DNA from: a virus
Length of the DNA: 45,123 bases
UHGV virus genome: UHGV-1374414
Strand: one strand, 5' to 3'
Below are positions 9,616 to 45,002 of this stretch, piece by piece. The position numbers and the translations under genes are program-made. Under the pieces are notes generated by a model that was not told the origin of the DNA, did no database searches, and saw only the letters and a program-made list of their open reading frames with translations. The stretch's first letter is position 1. Each line of letters opens with the position of its first letter.

Positions 9616-9890
9616 CACCGGAAGGCAAGATTCAAAGTCACCTGATGAAACGGGTGAAAGAGGTCGGCGGATTCTGCCGCAAACTGGCATGGGAGGGGCG
9701 CGCAGGTGCGCCCGACCTGATTATTATCATCAACGGCAAAATAGTGTTCGTCGAAGTGAAGCGCCCCGGAGGAAAACCGAAGCCGCACCAGGTACGTGAA
9801 CATGAGCGAATGGCCCGCCGCGGTGCTGACGTTCGCGTTATCGACAACATATCCGACTGCGATTTATTGGTTGCTGAATTGGTCGCATAG
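9612..9890 (+). CDS. VRR-NUC domain nuclease
   Basis: ATG overlaps HNH stop (ATGA); GAPDLIIIINGKIVFVEVKRPGGKPKPHQ fits VRR-NUC PD-(D/E)XK core. Confidence 0.75.
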   Translation: MTPEGKIQSHLMKRVKEVGGFCRKLAWEGRAGAPDLIIIINGKIVFVEVKRPGGKPKPHQVREHERMARRGADVRVIDNISDCDLLVAELVA

Positions 9891-10141: not shown

Positions 10142-10366
10142 ATGACGATGAAAGAACATTACCGACTCACCAAGCTGGGCGAATGCAAACCAGGCGATCG
10201 CGTATGGTTTATCGCTGGCATGAATGATCCGCTGCCGTTGACGGTGTGCTGGCAAAAGTTTAAGAGCTTCCGGGCTACTGGTGTCCACATCGGACACGCC
10301 ACCAACTACGACGCCACAAAAAGGAACTGGAACAGTGAAACCGAAGTCTGGAAAAAGGCGGAATAA
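10142..10366 (+). CDS. hypothetical protein
   Basis: ATG 10142 after GGGAGA; 74 aa. Confidence 0.5.
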   Translation: MTMKEHYRLTKLGECKPGDRVWFIAGMNDPLPLTVCWQKFKSFRATGVHIGHATNYDATKRNWNSETEVWKKAE

Positions 10367-10370
10367 AGAT

Positions 10371-11795
10371 ATGGCACGATTCCGACGCCGCGAATATCAG
10401 AAGTTGATAACCGCGTTCATCCTCAAGCATAAGCGATGTAATATCTGGGCGACAATGGGATCGGGTAAAACCGGCGCGACAATGTGGGCGCTGAATAAAA
10501 TGTTCCAGACTGGCGTCCTGTCCCATCATGAGGACCGCGTACTGGTGCTGGCCCCGCTGCGTGTTGCGTCAGGTACATGGCCCCCGGAGCAGGAGAAATG
10601 GCGGTTCTCATCCCTGCTGGTCGTAGACGGCACTGGGTCGGAGAAGGAACGTATTGCGGCGCTTGAGAGCGATGCTAACGTGGTTTGTGTTAACTATGAT
10701 GTGGTTGAGTGGCTGGTTGACTATTACGGCGATGCGTGGCCCTTTACGGTCGTTGTTGCCGATGAATCCACTAAGCTGAAAGGCTACCGAAGTAAGCAGG
10801 GAAGTAAGCGCGCCCGCGCACTGGCGGCGATTGCACATAAACACGTCAAGCGCTGGATTAACCTTACCGGCACACCAGCGCCAAACGGCTTGAAAGACTT
10901 ATGGGGTCAGACGTGGTTTGTCGACGGTGGCGAACGACTCGGCAGTAGCTATAAGGCATTTACGGATCGCTGGTTTATTAGCAAGCCTGTTAAGCCTGGC
11001 AGCTTCACGATGCAGCACGCTCCGCTAAAGAACTCCGAGAAAGAAATACAACAACGCCTGTCTGACGTATCACTAACCGTTGACGCGGCTGAATACTTCG
11101 GGTGCGACAAGCCAATCTATACGCCGGTTGTCGTGGACCTGCCGAAGAAAGCCCGCAAGATTTACGACCAGTTTGAAAGCGAGCTATTTGCCGAACTGGA
11201 AAGCGGAACAGTGGAAGCGGCTAACGCTGCGTCGAAGACCATCAAGTGCCTTCAGCTTGCATCTGGGGCCGTGTACAAGGTGGACGAAGACGGCGAACGG
11301 ACCGACGAGTGGGTGAAGATTCACGACGCGAAGCTGGACGCGCTTGAAAGTATCGTGGAGGAATTGAACGGGGCGCCGTTGCTCGTTGCGTATCAGTATA
11401 AGCATGACCTTGCACGTCTTAAGAAGAAATTTCCGCACGGCGTTGCTTTGGGTAAAGGAAAGCAGGGCAATAAGGATATGGAAGCATGGAACAGGGGCGA
11501 GATCCCCATCATGTTTGCACACCCGGCATCGGCGGGCCACGGCCTCAACCTGCAGGATGGCGGACATCACCTGGCAATCTTCTCCGATACCTGGAACTTT
11601 GAGCACTTTTCGCAGATCGTTGAACGTATCGGGCCGGTTCGCCAGATGCAGGCCGGACACCCTAGACCGGTATTCGTCTACATTATCCAGGCGCGCGGGA
11701 CACTGGACGAATTGGTCGCCGAGCGTCGCGACAGTAAGCGAGATATTCAGGACGATTTGATGGAATACATGAAAGCGAAGAAGGCGCGCAAATGA
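10371..11795 (+). CDS. SNF2/DEAD-like superfamily 2 helicase
   Basis: ATG 10371 (ORF-track start 10281 overlaps upstream gene); motifs GSGKTG, VVADESTKLK, LTGTPAPNGL, HPASAGHGLNLQ. Confidence 0.8.
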   Translation: MARFRRREYQKLITAFILKHKRCNIWATMGSGKTGATMWALNKMFQTGVLSHHEDRVLVLAPLRVASGTWPPEQEKWRFSSLLVVDGTGSEKERIAALESDANVVCVNYDVVEWLVDYYGDAWPFTVVVADESTKLKGYRSKQGSKRARALAAIAHKHVKRWINLTGTPAPNGLKDLWGQTWFVDGGERLGSSYKAFTDRWFISKPVKPGSFTMQHAPLKNSEKEIQQRLSDVSLTVDAAEYFGCDKPIYTPVVVDLPKKARKIYDQFESELFAELESGTVEAANAASKTIKCLQLASGAVYKVDEDGERTDEWVKIHDAKLDALESIVEELNGAPLLVAYQYKHDLARLKKKFPHGVALGKGKQGNKDMEAWNRGEIPIMFAHPASAGHGLNLQDGGHHLAIFSDTWNFEHFSQIVERIGPVRQMQAGHPRPVFVYIIQARGTLDELVAERRDSKRDIQDDLMEYMKAKKARK

Positions 11796-12487
11796 TAATC
11801 TGGTCATTGTTCGACGGCAGCGGCTTGATGATTGAGCGTGCTGCCGAGATGGGGCATAAGTGCTACTGTTTTAACTACTCCGAAGCCGATCACGGGTCTT
11901 ACCTTGACTACCGGATTTATGGTCGCGGGATCCGCTATCGCAATGAGTTTATCGATATGGACTTTGTGGACCGCGCGATGAATGGCGATTTCGGTACGCC
12001 AGATATCATCTATGCGTTCCCTCCGTGTACGGATCTGGCAGTGAGCGGTGCACCAGCTTTCCCGCGCAAGCGTGCGAAAGACCCGGCCTTTCAGCTTAAG
12101 GCGGTGCGCACCGCGAAGATCGCAGCTTACCTGGGTGATTTCTTTGAAGTGCCATATATGATTGAGAATCCGCGCAGTGTTCTTTCCACCCAGTGGCGCA
12201 AGCCGGATCACTCGTTCGACCCGTGGGAGTATGGGGGCTATCTGCCGGAGGATGACGTACACCCGCTCTTCCCGGAATACATCAACGCCCGCGATTCATA
12301 TCCGAAGCTGACCTGCTTATGGACCGGCAACGGCTTCCGTATGCCAGAGAAGAAACCTGTTTTCGTTGAAAAAGGGTACTCGAAGCAGTATAGTCGCCTC
12401 GGAGGCAAATCAGCCCGCACAAAATTAATCCGGTCGCTCACTCCGCGCGGCTTCGCGATAGCGGTTAACGAGGAAAATTTAAGATGA
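11792..12487 (+). CDS. putative DNA cytosine-C5 methyltransferase-like protein (compact, 231 aa)
   Basis: Motif I SLFDGSG, motif IV AFPPCTDLAVSG (PC catalytic Cys), ENP motif; start overlaps helicase stop. Confidence 0.5.
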   Translation: MIIWSLFDGSGLMIERAAEMGHKCYCFNYSEADHGSYLDYRIYGRGIRYRNEFIDMDFVDRAMNGDFGTPDIIYAFPPCTDLAVSGAPAFPRKRAKDPAFQLKAVRTAKIAAYLGDFFEVPYMIENPRSVLSTQWRKPDHSFDPWEYGGYLPEDDVHPLFPEYINARDSYPKLTCLWTGNGFRMPEKKPVFVEKGYSKQYSRLGGKSARTKLIRSLTPRGFAIAVNEENLR

Positions 12488-12807
12488 ATACGACATTCGA
12501 AGCCATCGACTTTTCGGTCGCAATGACTAACCAGCTATTCACCTACGACAGCAAAACCGGCGTCATCCGTCTGAAGTCCACCGGCTGCAAGATTGGCAAC
12601 ATCAATACTGCCGATGGCGGAACACGTATCGAATGCAACGGAAAGACGCTGTCTGGCGCACGCGTGGCGTGGATTATTGAGACGGGCAATACAATCCCTC
12701 CCGGCTTCGCCGTTGTGTGTCGCCAGCGCACACCGGGCCACTACGGCAACCGAATCAGCAATCTGTATTTGGTAGACGTTGCACGCGACCCTAACTTTTA
12801 TGCGTAA
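12484..12807 (+). CDS. hypothetical protein
   Basis: 107 aa; start overlaps upstream stop; weak HNH/AP2-like resemblance only. Confidence 0.5.
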   Translation: MNTTFEAIDFSVAMTNQLFTYDSKTGVIRLKSTGCKIGNINTADGGTRIECNGKTLSGARVAWIIETGNTIPPGFAVVCRQRTPGHYGNRISNLYLVDVARDPNFYA

Positions 12808-12812
12808 ATTGG

Positions 12813-12841
12813 TTGCATAATCATATTGGTTGCATTATATT
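12813..12841 (+). promoter_or_regulatory. sigma70-like promoter TTGCAT-17-TATATT built from two ATTGGTTGCAT direct repeats
   Basis: ATTGGTTGCAT at 12808-12818 and 12825-12835; -10 TATATT at 12836-12841; gene starts at 12889. Confidence 0.5.
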
Positions 12842-12888
12842 GAGGGTGTCCGGTTTGGACGCCCTTTTTAATACCCGGAGACAACACG

Positions 12889-13347
12889 ATGAAAATTTTA
12901 CAAGAAGAGAAAAATTACTGGGCCGCGCAATGCCTCGAAGCCCGCGAGCAAGCCGATCGGGCGAACGCGGTGGCGGACACCAACCAGGCGCTATATGAAG
13001 GCGAGAAGAAAGTGCGCCAGGAGCTAGAGGAGCGCTTCGAACTGCTTTTCGAATTGATGGGGATTATGCAGCGCACTGGATACACAACCAGCGTTGCGCT
13101 AAATCGCATCACTGCCGATGGTTTGCGTGAGCATTGCAAACGTGCCGAGGAGTACGTGCGCCCAAAAGGTCGCCAGTCTAAGATCGACCGTAAAGATCTG
13201 GTGCTTGTGGCGTGGCGCAATCCCACAAATGGCTATTTTCATGGTCGCCCTATGAGCGCCGAGGAGTCAAAGCGAGTGCAGCGAATCCTGAAGAAAGGCA
13301 ACAATATCGCCCTGTACGCGATAGCCCCCGACCATGACGAAGAATGA
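12889..13347 (+). CDS. hypothetical protein
   Basis: 152 aa; SD GGAG 8 nt upstream. Confidence 0.6.
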   Translation: MKILQEEKNYWAAQCLEAREQADRANAVADTNQALYEGEKKVRQELEERFELLFELMGIMQRTGYTTSVALNRITADGLREHCKRAEEYVRPKGRQSKIDRKDLVLVAWRNPTNGYFHGRPMSAEESKRVQRILKKGNNIALYAIAPDHDEE

Positions 13348-13819
13348 GCAAAAGGATAGCTGGCGCACGCCGCCAGCTTTATTTAAACCGCTGCGCCGTA
13401 AGTTCCGATTCCGTTACGATATGGCGGCGAGCGACGCCAATCATCTGCTACCGCGTTACTTCACGGCGGAGCGCAGCGCGCTTGATGTGGACTGGGCAGA
13501 GTTGAAAGGGTGGAAGTGGTGCAATCCGCCGTATTCCGACCCGCTGCCGTGGGTGGAGTGCGCAGCGCACGGACGCCGGACTGTCATGCTGCTGAATCAG
13601 GACACGTCGACGAAGTGGGCGAGGCTGGCCCGGAAGACTGCAAACCTGATAATTCTTCTGGACTGGCGGATTAGATTCATTCACGCCGTCACCGGTGAAG
13701 TTGGGCCGAGCAATAACAAGTGCCAGCAATTGATAATATTTGACGAAGCGCCGCCCATCGGCAGCGCACAAATTGAAATAATGAGCGAGAGTGAGTTACA
13801 TGAATATCTTAATCGTTGA
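13334..13819 (+). CDS. phage DNA N6-adenine methyltransferase (Dam-like)
   Basis: 161 aa; N-terminal DSWRTPPALF and WCNPPYS (NPPY motif). Confidence 0.75.
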   Translation: MTKNEQKDSWRTPPALFKPLRRKFRFRYDMAASDANHLLPRYFTAERSALDVDWAELKGWKWCNPPYSDPLPWVECAAHGRRTVMLLNQDTSTKWARLARKTANLIILLDWRIRFIHAVTGEVGPSNNKCQQLIIFDEAPPIGSAQIEIMSESELHEYLNR

Positions 13820-14024: not shown

Positions 14025-14491
14025 AATTACTGATTTGCGATTTGGATGGCGTTATTAACGGTTCAAGCGATGCGCGTGCCGACCTGGTTCCGGGTATAAA
14101 AACGAAATCAACCTTCTGGGCAAAGTGGCACAAAGCGCACGTACGCGAAGACCTGAACATGGATATGCTGCCGCTGTTGCGCATGTACAAAGAGCAAGGC
14201 TTCGAGATCGCGTATCTGACCAACCGGCAGCGAGAATGCTGGGACACGACCGCCGAACAACTGGAGGTCTTCCCGGTGGGCCGGTTGTTTATGCGCCATA
14301 TGCAGGACGACACCCCGCCGCCAGAGTTTAAGGCGTGCGCCGTGTTCAAAATGGTTTGCTATGCGGACGTATCGGAACTGGTCATCATTGAAGACTGTCC
14401 GAAGAACATCGCGGCAATTCGTCGGGCGTGTAGCGATCTGGTCCCGAAAATTTACGCAATAAATGTTGCAAAATTTACTTGCAACCAATAG
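14021..14491 (+). CDS. HAD-superfamily phosphatase (nucleotidase / polynucleotide 3'-phosphatase-like)
   Basis: 156 aa; HAD motif I LLICDLDGVI, motif II YLTNR, acidic motif IIEDCP. Confidence 0.55.
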   Translation: MKLLICDLDGVINGSSDARADLVPGIKTKSTFWAKWHKAHVREDLNMDMLPLLRMYKEQGFEIAYLTNRQRECWDTTAEQLEVFPVGRLFMRHMQDDTPPPEFKACAVFKMVCYADVSELVIIEDCPKNIAAIRRACSDLVPKIYAINVAKFTCNQ

Positions 14492-14508
14492 GTTGGTTGC
14501 ACTATAGT
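14479..14508 (+). promoter_or_regulatory. sigma70-like promoter TTGCAA-18-TATAGT overlapping inverted repeat TGCAACCAA-tagg-TTGGTTGCA
   Basis: 9-bp inverted arms at 14480-14488 and 14493-14501; -10 TATAGT at 14503-14508; downstream gene at 14554. Confidence 0.45.
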
Positions 14509-33624: not shown

Positions 33625-33653
33625 TTGCAATCCGCGTATTGGTTGCATATATT
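33625..33653 (+). promoter_or_regulatory. sigma70-like promoter TTGCAA-17-TATATT with tandem ATTGGTTGCA motifs
   Basis: Motif copies at 33638-33648 and 33651-33661; 25-nt stretch 33650-33674 identical to minus-strand 44510-44486. Confidence 0.5.
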
Positions 33654-33681
33654 GGTTGCACACCAACATGAGGATATGACA

Positions 33682-41029: not shown

Positions 41030-41059
41030 AGTGTAATACTCCTCTCGTTGATTGGTCGC

Positions 41060-41089
41060 AGTATGGCGTATATGTTGGTTGCAAGTCAA
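41060..41089 (-). promoter_or_regulatory. sigma70-like promoter TTGACT-18-CATACT (minus strand) with TTGCAACCAAC motif in spacer
   Basis: Located between terminator 41096-41128 and gene starting at 41029. Confidence 0.4.
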
Positions 41090-43911: not shown

Positions 43912-44177
43912 TTGCTCAGTCTCCAGTGTTTGCCTACCCGCTCAATGGCGGGCTTTCGGCGTAATGTAATACGGATCCCCATTGGTTGCAAGGAAGTCCG
44001 CACCCTGAAATCGTGTTGTGCTGCGAACTGGTGCAAGTAGCGAGTCTGCGTTAACGGCTTTACGTCGTCGCGATAGCACCAGAATACCGATTCGCCCTCA
44101 ACCGCATTCTCAGCCCATATTCGTATGCAATGCAGGGGAATATGCCACGAAAGCTGTTTTGCGCGTCTGCGGCTCAT
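43908..44177 (-). CDS. hypothetical protein (possible diverged third paralog)
   Basis: 89 aa; C-terminus IERVGKHWRLSK resembles RVGRKATWRLRK of neighbour. Confidence 0.5.
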   Translation of the reverse strand: MSRRRAKQLSWHIPLHCIRIWAENAVEGESVFWCYRDDVKPLTQTRYLHQFAAQHDFRVRTSLQPMGIRITLRRKPAIERVGKHWRLSK

Positions 44178-44477: not shown

Positions 44478-44505
44478 TGTTCAGTCCTCATGTTGGTGTG
44501 CAACC

Positions 44506-44534
44506 AATATAGCAGGGTGCCAGGGCGGATGCAA
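44506..44534 (-). promoter_or_regulatory. sigma70-like promoter TTGCAT-17-TATATT (minus strand) from two ATATTGGTTGCA repeats
   Basis: Minus-strand -35 = plus 44529-44534, -10 = plus 44506-44511. Confidence 0.5.
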
Positions 44535-44611
44535 CCAATATTAATCACGCGCATGAAAAAGTTGATCGCTATCTGCTGTGACTGCAAACTGCGTTTTTCA
44601 CTCCGCATAAT

Positions 44612-44630
44612 GCAACCTGCATTGGTTGCC
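44612..44630. promoter_or_regulatory. inverted repeat GCAACC-tgcatt-GGTTGC (motif-derived operator-like site)
   Basis: Perfect 6-bp arms; overlaps ATTGGTTGCC at 44621-44630. Confidence 0.35.
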
Positions 44631-44689
44631 TAGTTCACCGGCGACCGCACTTCGCATCATGCTGCCGTGTATTTTGCAATCCCCGGATT

Positions 44690-44873
44690 TTATTCAGTCT
44701 CAGACGAGGGGGGCCACTGACCCCCGTCTAGTCTGAAAGACTGGGGTGCTGTCCCGCTGTCCCGCTCCTCTGGAAGCCGCGCCATCCGGGGCGGGACTGG
44801 GGTGCTGTCCCGCTTTGTCCCGCCCCTTGTTTGTCCCGCTTTTTGTCCCGCTTACTTTATGCAATAAAACTGC
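44690..44873. repeat. composite repeat element copy 2 (hairpins + TGTCCCGC iteron array), near primase gene 3' end
   Basis: About 85 percent identical to 27745-27918 in same orientation; five to six TGTCCCGC iterons; AT-rich tract follows. Confidence 0.8.
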
Positions 44874-44900
44874 ATAACTATTCACTATATCTACACTACA

Positions 44901-45002
44901 CGGCAACCAATGCGACCAGCTAAAAACACTCAATCCGGCAACCAATGCTCGCACAAATTAATCGTTTAGCGATATGGGGATTCCCATATCGGCAACCAAT
45001 GC
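44901..45002. repeat. three direct repeats of CGGCAACCAATGC plus a 20-bp palindrome
   Basis: Repeats at 44901-44913, 44936-44948, 44990-45002; palindrome GATATGGGGATTCCCATATC at 44971-44990. Confidence 0.7.

What the first reader, a model, noticed from the sequence alone, without database searches (positions are those of the whole stretch)
11792..13819. Two DNA methyltransferases of different classes (compact C5-cytosine-like and Dam-like N6-adenine)
The 231-aa protein has C5-MTase motifs I, IV and an ENV-like motif but seems to lack a normal target-recognition domain. The 161-aa protein matches the phage Dam family (NPPY). Together with the VRR-NUC, HNH and Cas4-like nucleases this looks like a self-protection/anti-restriction module; the minimal C5-like enzyme could instead be a non-canonical modification enzyme.
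Basis: partly seen in the sequence, partly recalled or inferred. Interest (0 to 1): 0.5.

Follow-up and report, generated by a model that had tools for sequence, protein, structure and literature searches.

The report
Two compact orphan phage DNA methyltransferases
This coliphage (a Dhillonvirus) carries two very small stand-alone DNA methyltransferase genes, one cytosine-C5 type and one adenine-N6 type; both are real and conserved, but they are already annotated in more than 150 sequenced relatives and a relative of the cytosine enzyme has been studied experimentally, so the finding is ordinary.

Summary

The window is a near-complete Dhillonvirus genome. Both genes are annotated as Dcm-like and Dam-like in more than 150 relatives and are under purifying selection (dN/dS 0.045 and 0.12).

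The 231-aa protein belongs to a large family of about 230-aa phage enzymes (phrog_757; 1512 phage records). It is 53% identical to the KarlJaspers Dcm. The orthologue of that protein in phage K42 was reported to put 5mC on retron Ec86 msDNA and to trigger that defence system. A non-canonical modification is therefore unlikely.

The "anti-restriction module with nucleases" reading is not supported. The nucleases belong to a DUF2800/SSB/PolA/VRR-NUC/SNF2 replication module, and BASEL data show Dhillonviruses are comparatively restriction-sensitive.

The recognition sequences remain open: CCWGG and GATC are assumed, not mapped. Verdict: already known, low interest.

The parts
11792..12487 (+). 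Compact (231 aa) C5-cytosine DNA methyltransferase of the phage 'Dcm-like' family (phrog_757). Its start overlaps the helicase stop (ATGA) and its stop overlaps the start of the next gene (ATGA).
11810..11824 (+). Motif I, FDGSG (AdoMet-binding loop after beta1)
   Evidence: Translation. F7, G9, S10 and G11 are invariant in A1.
12020..12028 (+). Motif IV, PPC, with the catalytic nucleophile Cys79
   Evidence: Translation. C79 is invariant in 76/76 diverse family members. It corresponds to C82, one of the four residues (C82, E128, K175, K176) replaced together in the K42 Dcm quadruple-alanine mutant.
12164..12172 (+). Motif VI, ENP (ENV-like; Glu125)
   Evidence: Translation. E125 and P127 are invariant. 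E125 corresponds to K42 E128.
12218..12445 (+). Family-specific C-terminal region (residues ~143-218) that takes the place of a TRD. It comprises a conserved insert between beta6 and beta7 (P144...Y170-x-K172-x-T174...W177) and about 40 residues before the last helix.
   Evidence: Secondary structure of the model. Invariant P144, Y170, W177 and P185. The C-terminal half is more conserved than the N-terminal half, with mean top-residue frequency 0.57 against 0.43.
12484..12807 (+). 107-aa HNH_3-like small protein (annotated as a homing or HNH endonuclease in relatives). It is not part of the methyltransferase function.
   Evidence: phrog_99 at 3.8e-16; PF13392 only at 0.082. Restricted to Dhillonvirus and Eiauvirus, 162 records. 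dN/dS 0.044.
12889..13347 (+). 152-aa protein of unknown function. It overlaps the Dam-like start by 14 nt.
   Evidence: No Pfam, NCBIfam or PADLOC hit. phrog_10530, labelled 'DNA ligase' without supporting evidence. dN/dS 0.26.
13334..13819 (+). Compact (161 aa) N6-adenine DNA methyltransferase of the phage Dam family (PF05869); an orphan enzyme consisting of the catalytic core only.
13523..13534 (+). Motif IV, NPPY (catalytic motif of amino-methyltransferases)
   Evidence: Translation. P66 and Y67 are invariant; N64 and P65 are at least 90% conserved.
13418..13432 (+). DMAAS segment, with invariant Asp29 at the end of beta1. Inferred to be the AdoMet-binding acidic residue.
   Evidence: Translation. 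D29, A31 and A32 are invariant. Strand 26-32 in the model. The role of Asp29 is an inference.
10281..11795 (+). SNF2-type DNA helicase immediately upstream (context: the C5-MTase gene is translationally coupled to it)
   Evidence: PF00176 at 5.5e-11; phrog_62 at 9.4e-157. 4-nt ATGA overlap.

Best explanation
The interval encodes two orphan (solitary) DNA methyltransferases that sit in the early DNA-replication gene block of a Dhillonvirus.

The 231-aa protein is a stripped-down C5-cytosine methyltransferase.
- It has a Rossmann core with FDGSG for AdoMet binding.
- Cys79 (PPC) attacks C6 of a flipped-out cytosine, and Glu125 (ENP) protonates N3.
- A short, family-conserved C-terminal region replaces the usual large variable TRD.
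- It most likely converts cytosine to 5-methylcytosine in phage DNA, and incidentally in host DNA. Dcm-type CCWGG sites are the leading candidate; there are 146 in this genome.

The 161-aa protein is a core-only N6-adenine methyltransferase (NPPY) of the phage Dam family. It most likely makes m6A, with GATC as the leading candidate target (163 sites).

Both enzymes would act during replication, so that progeny DNA is fully methylated whatever the host's dam/dcm status and however fast the phage replicates. That protects the phage only against restriction enzymes whose sites overlap these marks. The cost is that the phage becomes visible to methylation-sensing defences such as retron Ec86/Eco1.

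Shown here: gene reality, family membership, fold, catalytic motifs and purifying selection.
Taken from the literature on a 53%-identical orthologue: formation of 5mC.
Inferred: the recognition sequences and the anti-restriction benefit.
For: - Identity of the window: 92-93% nucleotide identity to Dhillonviruses (mckay, Maverick, Oekolampad/Bas18), where the genes are annotated as Dcm-like C5 and Dam-like N6 methyltransferases.
- C5 enzyme, motifs and their invariance.
- C5 enzyme, sequence links: weak PF00145 hits in 22/35 relatives and phrog_757 at 1.5e-82.
- C5 enzyme, orthologue: 53% identity over the full length to KarlJaspers bas06_0055. The orthologue of that protein in phage K42 raised 5mC on msDNA (LC-MS), was toxic only with retron Ec86 present, and lost the effect in a quadruple C82A/E128A/K175A/K176A mutant; escaper phages carried dcm-disrupting mutations.
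- C5 enzyme, family size: about 1900 50%-identity clusters, nearly all 205-260 aa, so the compact form is the norm and not a truncation.
- Synteny: Edwardsiella phage eiAU has a canonical PF00145 C5-MTase followed by a PF05869 Dam in the same post-helicase slot. This is a non-orthologous replacement by the same activity.
- Dam-like enzyme: PF05869 at 7e-36; NPPY and D29 conserved; model matches N6-adenine MTases; 30% identity to the phage T1 dam product.
- T1 Dam methylates GATC. This is from my own knowledge of Scherzer/Auer/Schweiger 1980s biochemistry and was not checked here.
- Selection: dN/dS 0.045 and 0.12.
- Many Dhillonviruses carrying the gene were isolated on E. coli K-12 MG1655. 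By inference they are therefore not heavily marked in the R-5mC contexts cut by McrBC, which fits a YmC site such as C5mCWGG. The MG1655 genotype and the McrBC specificity are from my own knowledge.
Against: - No direct methylation data exist for this phage or, as far as my searches found, for any Dhillonvirus.
- CCWGG specificity of the compact family was assumed from E. coli Dcm in the Ec86 study and was not mapped. In that study msDNA carried little 5mC in dcm+ MG1655 without the phage enzyme. This raises the question of whether the phage enzyme really has the same target as host Dcm.
- The family occurs in phages of very different hosts (Vibrio, Arthrobacter, Prochlorococcus), for which a Dcm/EcoRII-type site is not an obvious fit.
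- The Dam-like protein is only 30% identical to T1 Dam, lacks its N-terminal ~50 residues and an internal insert, and falls below the TIGR01712 equivalog cut-off (87.1 against 97.05). GATC is therefore a guess.
- CCWGG and GATC counts are unremarkable: 146 against 158 expected, and 163 against 212 (Markov) or 173 (base composition) expected.
- BASEL found Dhillonviruses RM-sensitive, and found no simple link between MTase genes and restriction resistance in the related Drexlerviridae. A protective benefit is therefore unproven.
- K176 of the K42 enzyme is Leu173 here.
Confidence: 0.78

Rival explanations
1. The compact C5 enzyme is a true 5mC methyltransferase, but its target is not CCWGG. It recognises a shorter or degenerate motif, or prefers single-stranded, hairpin or replicating DNA, using the family-conserved C-terminal region rather than a variable TRD.
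For: - The C-terminal half is more conserved than the catalytic half across members that are 32-55% identical. This is the opposite of canonical C5-MTases, whose TRDs vary with specificity (established knowledge).
- The family is spread over phages of unrelated hosts.
- In dcm+ MG1655, msDNA gained 5mC only when the phage enzyme was expressed.
- The closest structural neighbours are DNMT3A/B, which read only a dinucleotide with a small TRD.
Against: - Mutating the CCTGG of the msDNA abolished Ec86 defence.
- Dhillonviruses remain sensitive to type II RM systems in BASEL.
- They plate on McrBC+ MG1655 (genotype from my own knowledge). Both points argue against dense or RmC-context methylation.
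Confidence: 0.22
2. The 231-aa protein installs a non-methyl group (carboxymethyl, hydroxymethyl or similar) on C5 of cytosine, or acts on RNA as DNMT2 does. That would make it a non-canonical modification enzyme.
For: - The protein has no Pfam hit of its own.
- The motif II residue is Asn28 here, whereas the wider family has Asp.
Against: - The K42 orthologue, which also has Asn at that position, produced 5mC on DNA by LC-MS.
- No hypermodification genes such as glycosyl- or aminotransferases, kinases or dNMP hydroxymethylases lie nearby.
- Dhillonviruses are RM-sensitive.
Confidence: 0.04
3. The two methyltransferases together with VRR-NUC, HNH and the Cas4-like nuclease form one co-evolved self-protection/anti-restriction module.
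For: All of these genes lie on the same strand within about 10 kb, several with overlapping stop and start codons.
Against: - The nucleases sit in a DUF2800/PD-(D/E)XK, Enc34-type SSB, PolA, VRR-NUC and SNF2 helicase set typical of phage replication and recombination.
- The compact C5-MTase occurs in 1512 phage records of many families (Drexlerviridae, rV5-like and large myoviruses) without this neighbourhood.
- The HNH-like gene is lineage-restricted.
- PADLOC has no defence or anti-defence model for the C5 enzyme and calls the Dam-like protein an orphan MTase.
Confidence: 0.04
4. The enzymes are active methyltransferases whose main benefit is not escape from restriction. Instead they control phage DNA metabolism, for example by avoiding MutH/Vsr processing of under-methylated replicating DNA, or by timing replication, packaging or gene expression.
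For: - Both genes are embedded in the replication module, and the C5 gene is translationally coupled to the helicase.
- Dhillonviruses gain no broad RM resistance.
- The hosts already carry Dam and Dcm, so redundancy with the host marks suggests a kinetic role during fast replication. This is an inference.
Against: - No data exist either way.
- K42 escaper phages that lost dcm were viable, so the C5 enzyme is dispensable under laboratory conditions.
Confidence: 0.2

Closest known systems
Phage KarlJaspers / K42 'Dcm' (bas06_0055), the trigger of retron Ec86 (Eco1); family phrog_757
   Same: - 53% identity over the full length, and about the same size (231 against 236 aa).
- The same FDGSG, PPC and ENP motifs; the experimentally mutated residues C82, E128 and K175 correspond to C79, E125 and K172.
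- The same Asn at the motif II position.
- The same annotation in BASEL.
   Different: - It comes from a different phage lineage (Drexlerviridae against Dhillonvirus) and a different genomic neighbourhood.
- K176 is Leu173 here.
- Activity, target site and Ec86 triggering have not been tested for the Dhillonvirus protein.
Canonical bacterial C5-cytosine methyltransferases (PF00145: E. coli Dcm, M.HhaI, M.HaeIII)
   Same: - The same order and chemistry of motifs I, IV and VI.
- Weak sequence matches over motifs I-IV (M.HaeIII at E 0.43; Dcm motif IV).
   Different: - About 100-240 residues shorter.
- No recognisable QxRxR motif VIII and no large variable TRD.
- ENP instead of ENV.
- No PF00145 hit for this protein, and the profile-profile match to E. 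coli Dcm is not significant.
- The C-terminal half is conserved across the family rather than variable.
Catalytic domain of eukaryotic DNMT3A/DNMT3B
   Same: - It is also a compact C5-MTase with a small TRD.
   Different: - Only 12-16% sequence identity.
- DNMT3 enzymes work as DNMT3L-assisted tetramers and read CpG. No oligomerisation or CpG preference is known or testable here.
- The resemblance is one of architecture and is not evidence of a specific relationship.
Phage Dam family PF05869 (phage T1 dam product ST20, HP1/HP2 Dam, Stx-phage Dam-like proteins)
   Same: - A Pfam match well above threshold.
- A conserved NPPY motif and a conserved acidic residue after beta1.
- 30% identity to T1 and KarlJaspers Dam and 37.6% to the Stx-phage proteins.
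- Small size with no separate TRD.
   Different: - It is shorter than T1 Dam (161 against 237 aa), lacking the N-terminal ~50 residues and a ~15-residue insert.
- It is below the TIGR01712 equivalog cut-off.
- Close relatives are confined to Dhillonvirus-like phages.
- Its target sequence is unknown.

Membership tests
C5-cytosine DNA methyltransferase superfamily (PF00145-type) | Motif I FxGxG AdoMet-binding loop | tested here: met
   F7-D-G9-S-G11 follows beta1. F7, G9 and G11 are invariant in A1.
C5-cytosine DNA methyltransferase superfamily (PF00145-type) | Motif IV Pro-Cys with the catalytic cysteine | tested here: met
   P77-P78-C79 sits at the end of beta4. C79 is invariant in 76/76 diverse members.
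C5-cytosine DNA methyltransferase superfamily (PF00145-type) | Motif VI ENV (the Glu that protonates N3) | tested here: met
   E125-N126-P127 (ENP). E125 is invariant.
C5-cytosine DNA methyltransferase superfamily (PF00145-type) | Motif VIII QxRxR | tested here: inconclusive
   No QxRxR is present. A conserved W135-R136 and K172 may substitute. I could not superpose coordinates to decide.
C5-cytosine DNA methyltransferase superfamily (PF00145-type) | Large variable target-recognition domain between motifs VIII and IX | tested here: not met
   Only about 40 residues lie between beta7 (174-179) and the last helix (219-229). The whole protein is 231 aa, against 327 aa for the M.HhaI chain. This region is conserved, not variable.
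C5-cytosine DNA methyltransferase superfamily (PF00145-type) | Pfam PF00145 match above the gathering score | tested here: not met
   This protein gives no hit even at E<=1. 22/35 close relatives give weak hits, the best at 1.3e-6.
C5-cytosine DNA methyltransferase superfamily (PF00145-type) | C5-MTase three-dimensional fold | tested here: met
   [not shown]
C5-cytosine DNA methyltransferase superfamily (PF00145-type) | Produces 5-methylcytosine in DNA | not testable with these tools
   Reported by LC-MS for the K42 enzyme, whose Bas06 counterpart is 53% identical to this protein (bioRxiv 10.1101/2023.08.16.553469). Not done for this protein.
Compact phage 'Dcm-like' family (phrog_757; K42/KarlJaspers Dcm) | Full-length homology at about 205-260 aa | tested here: met
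   phrog_757 at 1.5e-82 over residues 1-229. 53% identity end to end with bas06_0055. The family's length distribution is 205-260 aa.
Compact phage 'Dcm-like' family (phrog_757; K42/KarlJaspers Dcm) | Residues mutated in the inactive K42 enzyme (C82, E128, K175, K176) | tested here: met
   C79, E125 and K172 are conserved. K176 corresponds to L173 here, the one difference.
Compact phage 'Dcm-like' family (phrog_757; K42/KarlJaspers Dcm) | CCWGG target and triggering of retron Ec86 | not testable with these tools
   The site was assumed, not mapped, even for K42. Nothing is known for Dhillonvirus.
Phage Dam family (PF05869) | Pfam match above the gathering score | tested here: met
   123.8 bits against a cut-off of 28.1, E 7.2e-36, covering residues 2-143.
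Phage Dam family (PF05869) | (D/N)PPY catalytic motif | tested here: met
   N64-P65-P66-Y67. P66 and Y67 are invariant.
Phage Dam family (PF05869) | NCBIfam TIGR01712 'phage N-6-adenine-methyltransferase' equivalog cut-off | tested here: not met
   87.1 bits against a cut-off of 97.05. The protein is a divergent, shortened member.
Phage Dam family (PF05869) | N6-adenine amino-methyltransferase fold | tested here: met
   [not shown]
Phage Dam family (PF05869) | GATC specificity | not testable with these tools
   Only 30% identity to T1 Dam. The GATC count is unremarkable.
Type II restriction-modification system | A cognate restriction endonuclease adjacent to the methyltransferase | tested here: not met
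   The neighbours are a helicase, an HNH_3-like 107-aa protein, a 152-aa protein of unknown function, a 77-aa protein of unknown function and a HAD phosphatase. PADLOC calls the Dam-like protein an orphan MTase and has no hit for the C5 enzyme.

The most novel reading that the evidence does not exclude
The compact, TRD-less C5 family, including this protein, may not be a Dcm mimic at all. It may have a single family-wide mode of target recognition, carried by its highly conserved C-terminal half. That mode could be a very short motif, or a preference for hairpin, single-stranded or replicating DNA. This would explain why it methylates retron msDNA that host Dcm leaves largely unmodified, and why the same enzyme is kept by phages of unrelated hosts.
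Probability: 0.2. Interest if true: 0.55.

Novelty: already known. Interest (0 to 1): 0.2.

Why it matters
For this window it matters little. Both genes are standard, already-annotated features of Dhillonviruses, and they do not define a new system.

The wider point is modest. A very large family of about 230-aa phage C5-methyltransferases (1512 phage records, about 1900 clusters at 50% identity) escapes Pfam and NCBIfam, lacks a normal TRD, and has never had its recognition sequence mapped directly. Yet it determines sensitivity to a defence system (retron Ec86/Eco1), and presumably to 5mC-dependent restriction.

Mapping its specificity would help predict phage host range against RM, type IV and retron defences. 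It could also provide a very small C5-methyltransferase scaffold for use as a tool.

Tried and rejected
1. Sequence-only links from the 231-aa protein to solved structures gave nothing significant. This covered phmmer and two family profiles against PDB sequences, and hhalign against E. coli Dcm. The best results were M.HaeIII at E 0.43, DNMT2 at 0.5 and Dcm motif IV at E 0.13. Only the structure-based searches were decisive.

2. I considered the translationally coupled 107-aa HNH-like protein as a separate specificity subunit for the TRD-less C5 enzyme. I rejected this because it is confined to Dhillonvirus and Eiauvirus (162 records) and is unrelated to the gene next to the KarlJaspers dcm.

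3. I considered the 152-aa protein that overlaps the Dam-like start as a Dam partner. No family or structure information was available, and phage eiAU has no such gene before its Dam. This was left open.

4. Motif counting for CCWGG, GATC and other palindromes, meant to infer specificity from avoidance or enrichment, gave no informative deviation.

5. Literature searches for methylome data on Dhillonvirus, Drexlerviridae or BASEL phages found none.

6. I checked M.EcoGII-type and other non-specific adenine MTases as relatives of the Dam-like protein. M.EcoGII is a class beta enzyme; I did not check whether it or the phiOS31/phiP27 proteins fall in PF05869, so nothing was transferred from them.

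7. The third homologue search, using a profile of the Dam-like protein, returned mostly near-identical T1-like Dam proteins and added little diversity.

Full report
**What the window is.** The 3.5 kb around the finding is 91-93% identical at the nucleotide level to more than 150 Escherichia phages of the genus Dhillonvirus, including mckay, Maverick and Oekolampad/Bas18. In those genomes the same genes are annotated as helicase, C-5 cytosine methylase, HNH endonuclease, hypothetical proteins and Dam-like N6-adenine methyltransferase. At 45,123 bp the window is essentially a complete Dhillonvirus genome; the BASEL paper gives 43-46 kb for the genus.

**Check of the observation.**
- The 231-aa protein carries FDGSG (residues 7-11), PPC (77-79) and ENP (125-127).
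- The 161-aa protein carries NPPY (64-67) and matches Pfam PF05869 'Dam' at E 7.2e-36.
- Both genes are under purifying selection relative to phage Oekolampad, with dN/dS 0.045 and 0.12.
- The finding's interval also contains a 107-aa HNH_3-like gene (12484-12807) and a 152-aa gene of unknown function (12889-13347).
- The C5 gene overlaps the SNF2 helicase stop and the HNH-like start by ATGA. The 152-aa gene overlaps the Dam-like start by 14 nt.

**The 231-aa protein: sequence evidence.**
- It has no Pfam or NCBIfam hit and no significant sequence match to any PDB chain.
- It matches PHROG 757 'DNA methyltransferase' at 1.5e-82.
- 22 of 35 close relatives give weak PF00145 hits.

**The 231-aa protein: structure evidence.**
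- An AlphaFold2 model built on 35 homologues is confident (pLDDT 91.1, pTM 0.89).
- Foldseek agrees; its top 40 are DNMT3A/B/C.
- The secondary-structure order fits the class: beta1 with FDGSG, beta4 with PPC, beta5 with ENP, a beta6/beta7 hairpin, and a C-terminal helix.
- Only 104 residues follow ENP, with about 40 between beta7 and the last helix.

**The family is compact by design.**
- A profile search of 1.84 billion representatives found 1913 clusters (181 at E<=1e-30), nearly all 205-260 aa long.
- tblastn finds the gene in 1512 phage records. These include Dhillonvirus, T1-like Drexlerviridae, rV5-like and large myoviruses, and Klebsiella, Salmonella, Vibrio, Arthrobacter and Prochlorococcus phages.
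- In 76 members only 32-55% identical to the query, C79, E125, P127, P144, Y170, W177 and P185 are invariant.
- The C-terminal half is more conserved than the N-terminal half, with mean top-residue frequency 0.57 against 0.43. This is the reverse of canonical C5-MTases, in which the TRD is the variable part (established knowledge).

**Link to experiments.** The protein is 53% identical over its full length to bas06_0055 of phage KarlJaspers. A preprint on retron Ec86 (bioRxiv 10.1101/2023.08.16.553469) used KarlJaspers strain K42 and its 711-bp dcm gene.
- All four escaper phages carried mutations that disrupt, or may disrupt, dcm.
- Dcm expression was toxic only when Ec86 was present.
- LC-MS showed increased 5mC on msDNA with the wild-type Dcm but not with a C82A/E128A/K175A/K176A mutant.
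- The authors also noted the DNMT3A-like predicted fold.
- Those residues map to C79, E125, K172 and L173 here.

The simplest reading is that the Dhillonvirus protein is an active 5mC DNA methyltransferase. A non-canonical modification is unlikely.

One caveat matters. The CCWGG target was assumed from E. coli Dcm and supported only by mutating the CCTGG of the msDNA. Moreover, msDNA had little 5mC in dcm+ MG1655 without the phage enzyme. The true recognition mode of this family is therefore not settled.

**The 161-aa protein.**
- Besides the Pfam hit, it matches phrog_111 (7.5e-55) and PADLOC 'orphan methyltransferase' models. It falls below the TIGR01712 equivalog cut-off, at 87.1 against 97.05 bits.
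- D29, P66 and Y67 are invariant among its relatives.
- It is 30% identical to the Dam-like proteins of KarlJaspers and phage T1. The T1 protein (ST20) is annotated as similar to HP2 dam. The Dhillonvirus protein lacks their N-terminal ~50 residues and an internal insert.
- T1 Dam is GATC-specific according to classical biochemistry. This is from my own knowledge and was not verified here. At 30% identity the target cannot be transferred with confidence.

**Genomic context and the 'module' idea.**
- Upstream on the same strand lie a DUF2800/PD-(D/E)XK protein (the 'Cas4-like' nuclease), an Enc34-type SSB, a family A DNA polymerase, a VRR-NUC protein and the SNF2 helicase. Downstream lie a HAD-type phosphatase and a DUF6378 protein. 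This is a replication/recombination block, not an anti-restriction cassette.
- The compact C5 gene occurs in many phage families without these neighbours.
- The small HNH-like gene is restricted to Dhillonvirus and Eiauvirus.
- Edwardsiella phage eiAU has, in the same post-helicase slot, a canonical PF00145 C5-MTase followed by a PF05869 Dam. This is a non-orthologous replacement, and it supports 'cytosine MTase plus adenine MTase' as the conserved functional pair.
- No restriction endonuclease partner is present, so both enzymes are orphans.

**Biological role (inferred).**
- Phage-encoded orphan MTases are generally taken to protect progeny DNA from restriction at overlapping sites.
- The BASEL study, however, found Dhillonviruses comparatively sensitive to type I/II RM, and saw no simple relation between MTase genes and restriction resistance in the related Drexlerviridae.
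- Counts of CCWGG (146 against about 158 expected) and GATC (163 against 173-212 expected) are unremarkable.
- Many Dhillonviruses carrying the gene were isolated on MG1655. That strain is McrBC+ (my own knowledge), which argues against dense R-5mC methylation and fits a YmC site such as C5mCWGG.
- A documented cost of the C5 enzyme's family is detection by retron Ec86.

**Verdict.** The nuclease 'module' is wrong, and a non-canonical modification is unlikely. The genes are at least 93-99% identical in protein sequence to annotated genes in many deposited genomes, and the C5 family has an experimentally studied member. The finding is therefore already known and of low interest. What remains open is the real sequence or structure specificity of the two compact enzymes. 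I give a 0.2 probability that the C5 family does not simply mimic Dcm.

Noticed in passing
window 12808-12834, 9866-9887, 14480-14501, 33638-33660, 41051-41083, 43981-43990 and 44499-45000: The 10-nt motif ATTGGTTGCA occurs 20 times (up to 1 mismatch) against 3.3 expected, and none of 100 shuffles reached 20. Many of the copies lie in closely spaced pairs. One pair lies inside the finding's interval, between the HNH-like gene and the 152-aa gene. It is followed by a hairpin (GGGTGTCC-GGTTT-GGACGCCC) and a run of T. The motif is probably a phage promoter or operator element that separates the two methyltransferase genes into different transcription units.
   Followed up: partly
window 12889-13347 (+): This 152-aa protein has no Pfam, NCBIfam or PADLOC hit. 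PHROG 10530 labels it 'DNA ligase', and one GenBank record notes 'possible DNA ligase but no evidence'. It overlaps the Dam-like start codon by 14 nt and evolves faster than its neighbours (81% amino-acid identity to Oekolampad, dN/dS 0.26). Its function and any link to the Dam-like enzyme are unknown.
   Followed up: partly
window 12484-12807 (+): This 107-aa HNH_3-like protein (phrog_99 at 3.8e-16; Pfam HNH_3 only at E 0.08) appears to lack the usual HNH histidines in the 'ARVAW...VVCRQR' segment, judged by eye. It is nevertheless under strong purifying selection (dN/dS 0.044). It is confined to Dhillonvirus and Eiauvirus phages. It may be a DNA-binding remnant rather than an active homing endonuclease.
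   Followed up: partly
window 12808-12888 compared with L001 7905-8147 (phage Oekolampad): Oekolampad carries an extra 243-bp ORF between the HNH-like gene and the 152-aa gene. Several other relatives match this window in two pieces, which may reflect the same insertion. This window instead has an 81-nt intergenic gap there, so a small-gene insertion or deletion has occurred at the position of the ATTGGTTGCA pair.
   Followed up: no
residue 28 of the 231-aa protein (window 11873-11875): The motif II position after beta2 is Asp in 91% of the wider compact C5-MTase family. It is invariantly Asn in the enterobacterial-phage subgroup, which includes this protein and the KarlJaspers/K42 Dcm. This is a subgroup-specific change in a residue that normally contacts the AdoMet ribose.
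   Followed up: partly
L006 (Edwardsiella phage eiAU) 2983-4522: In the slot after the helicase, phage eiAU has a canonical 330-aa PF00145 C5-methyltransferase directly followed by a PF05869 Dam. The pairing of a cytosine and an adenine methyltransferase is therefore conserved between these siphophage genera, although the cytosine enzyme has been swapped for an unrelated one.
   Followed up: yes
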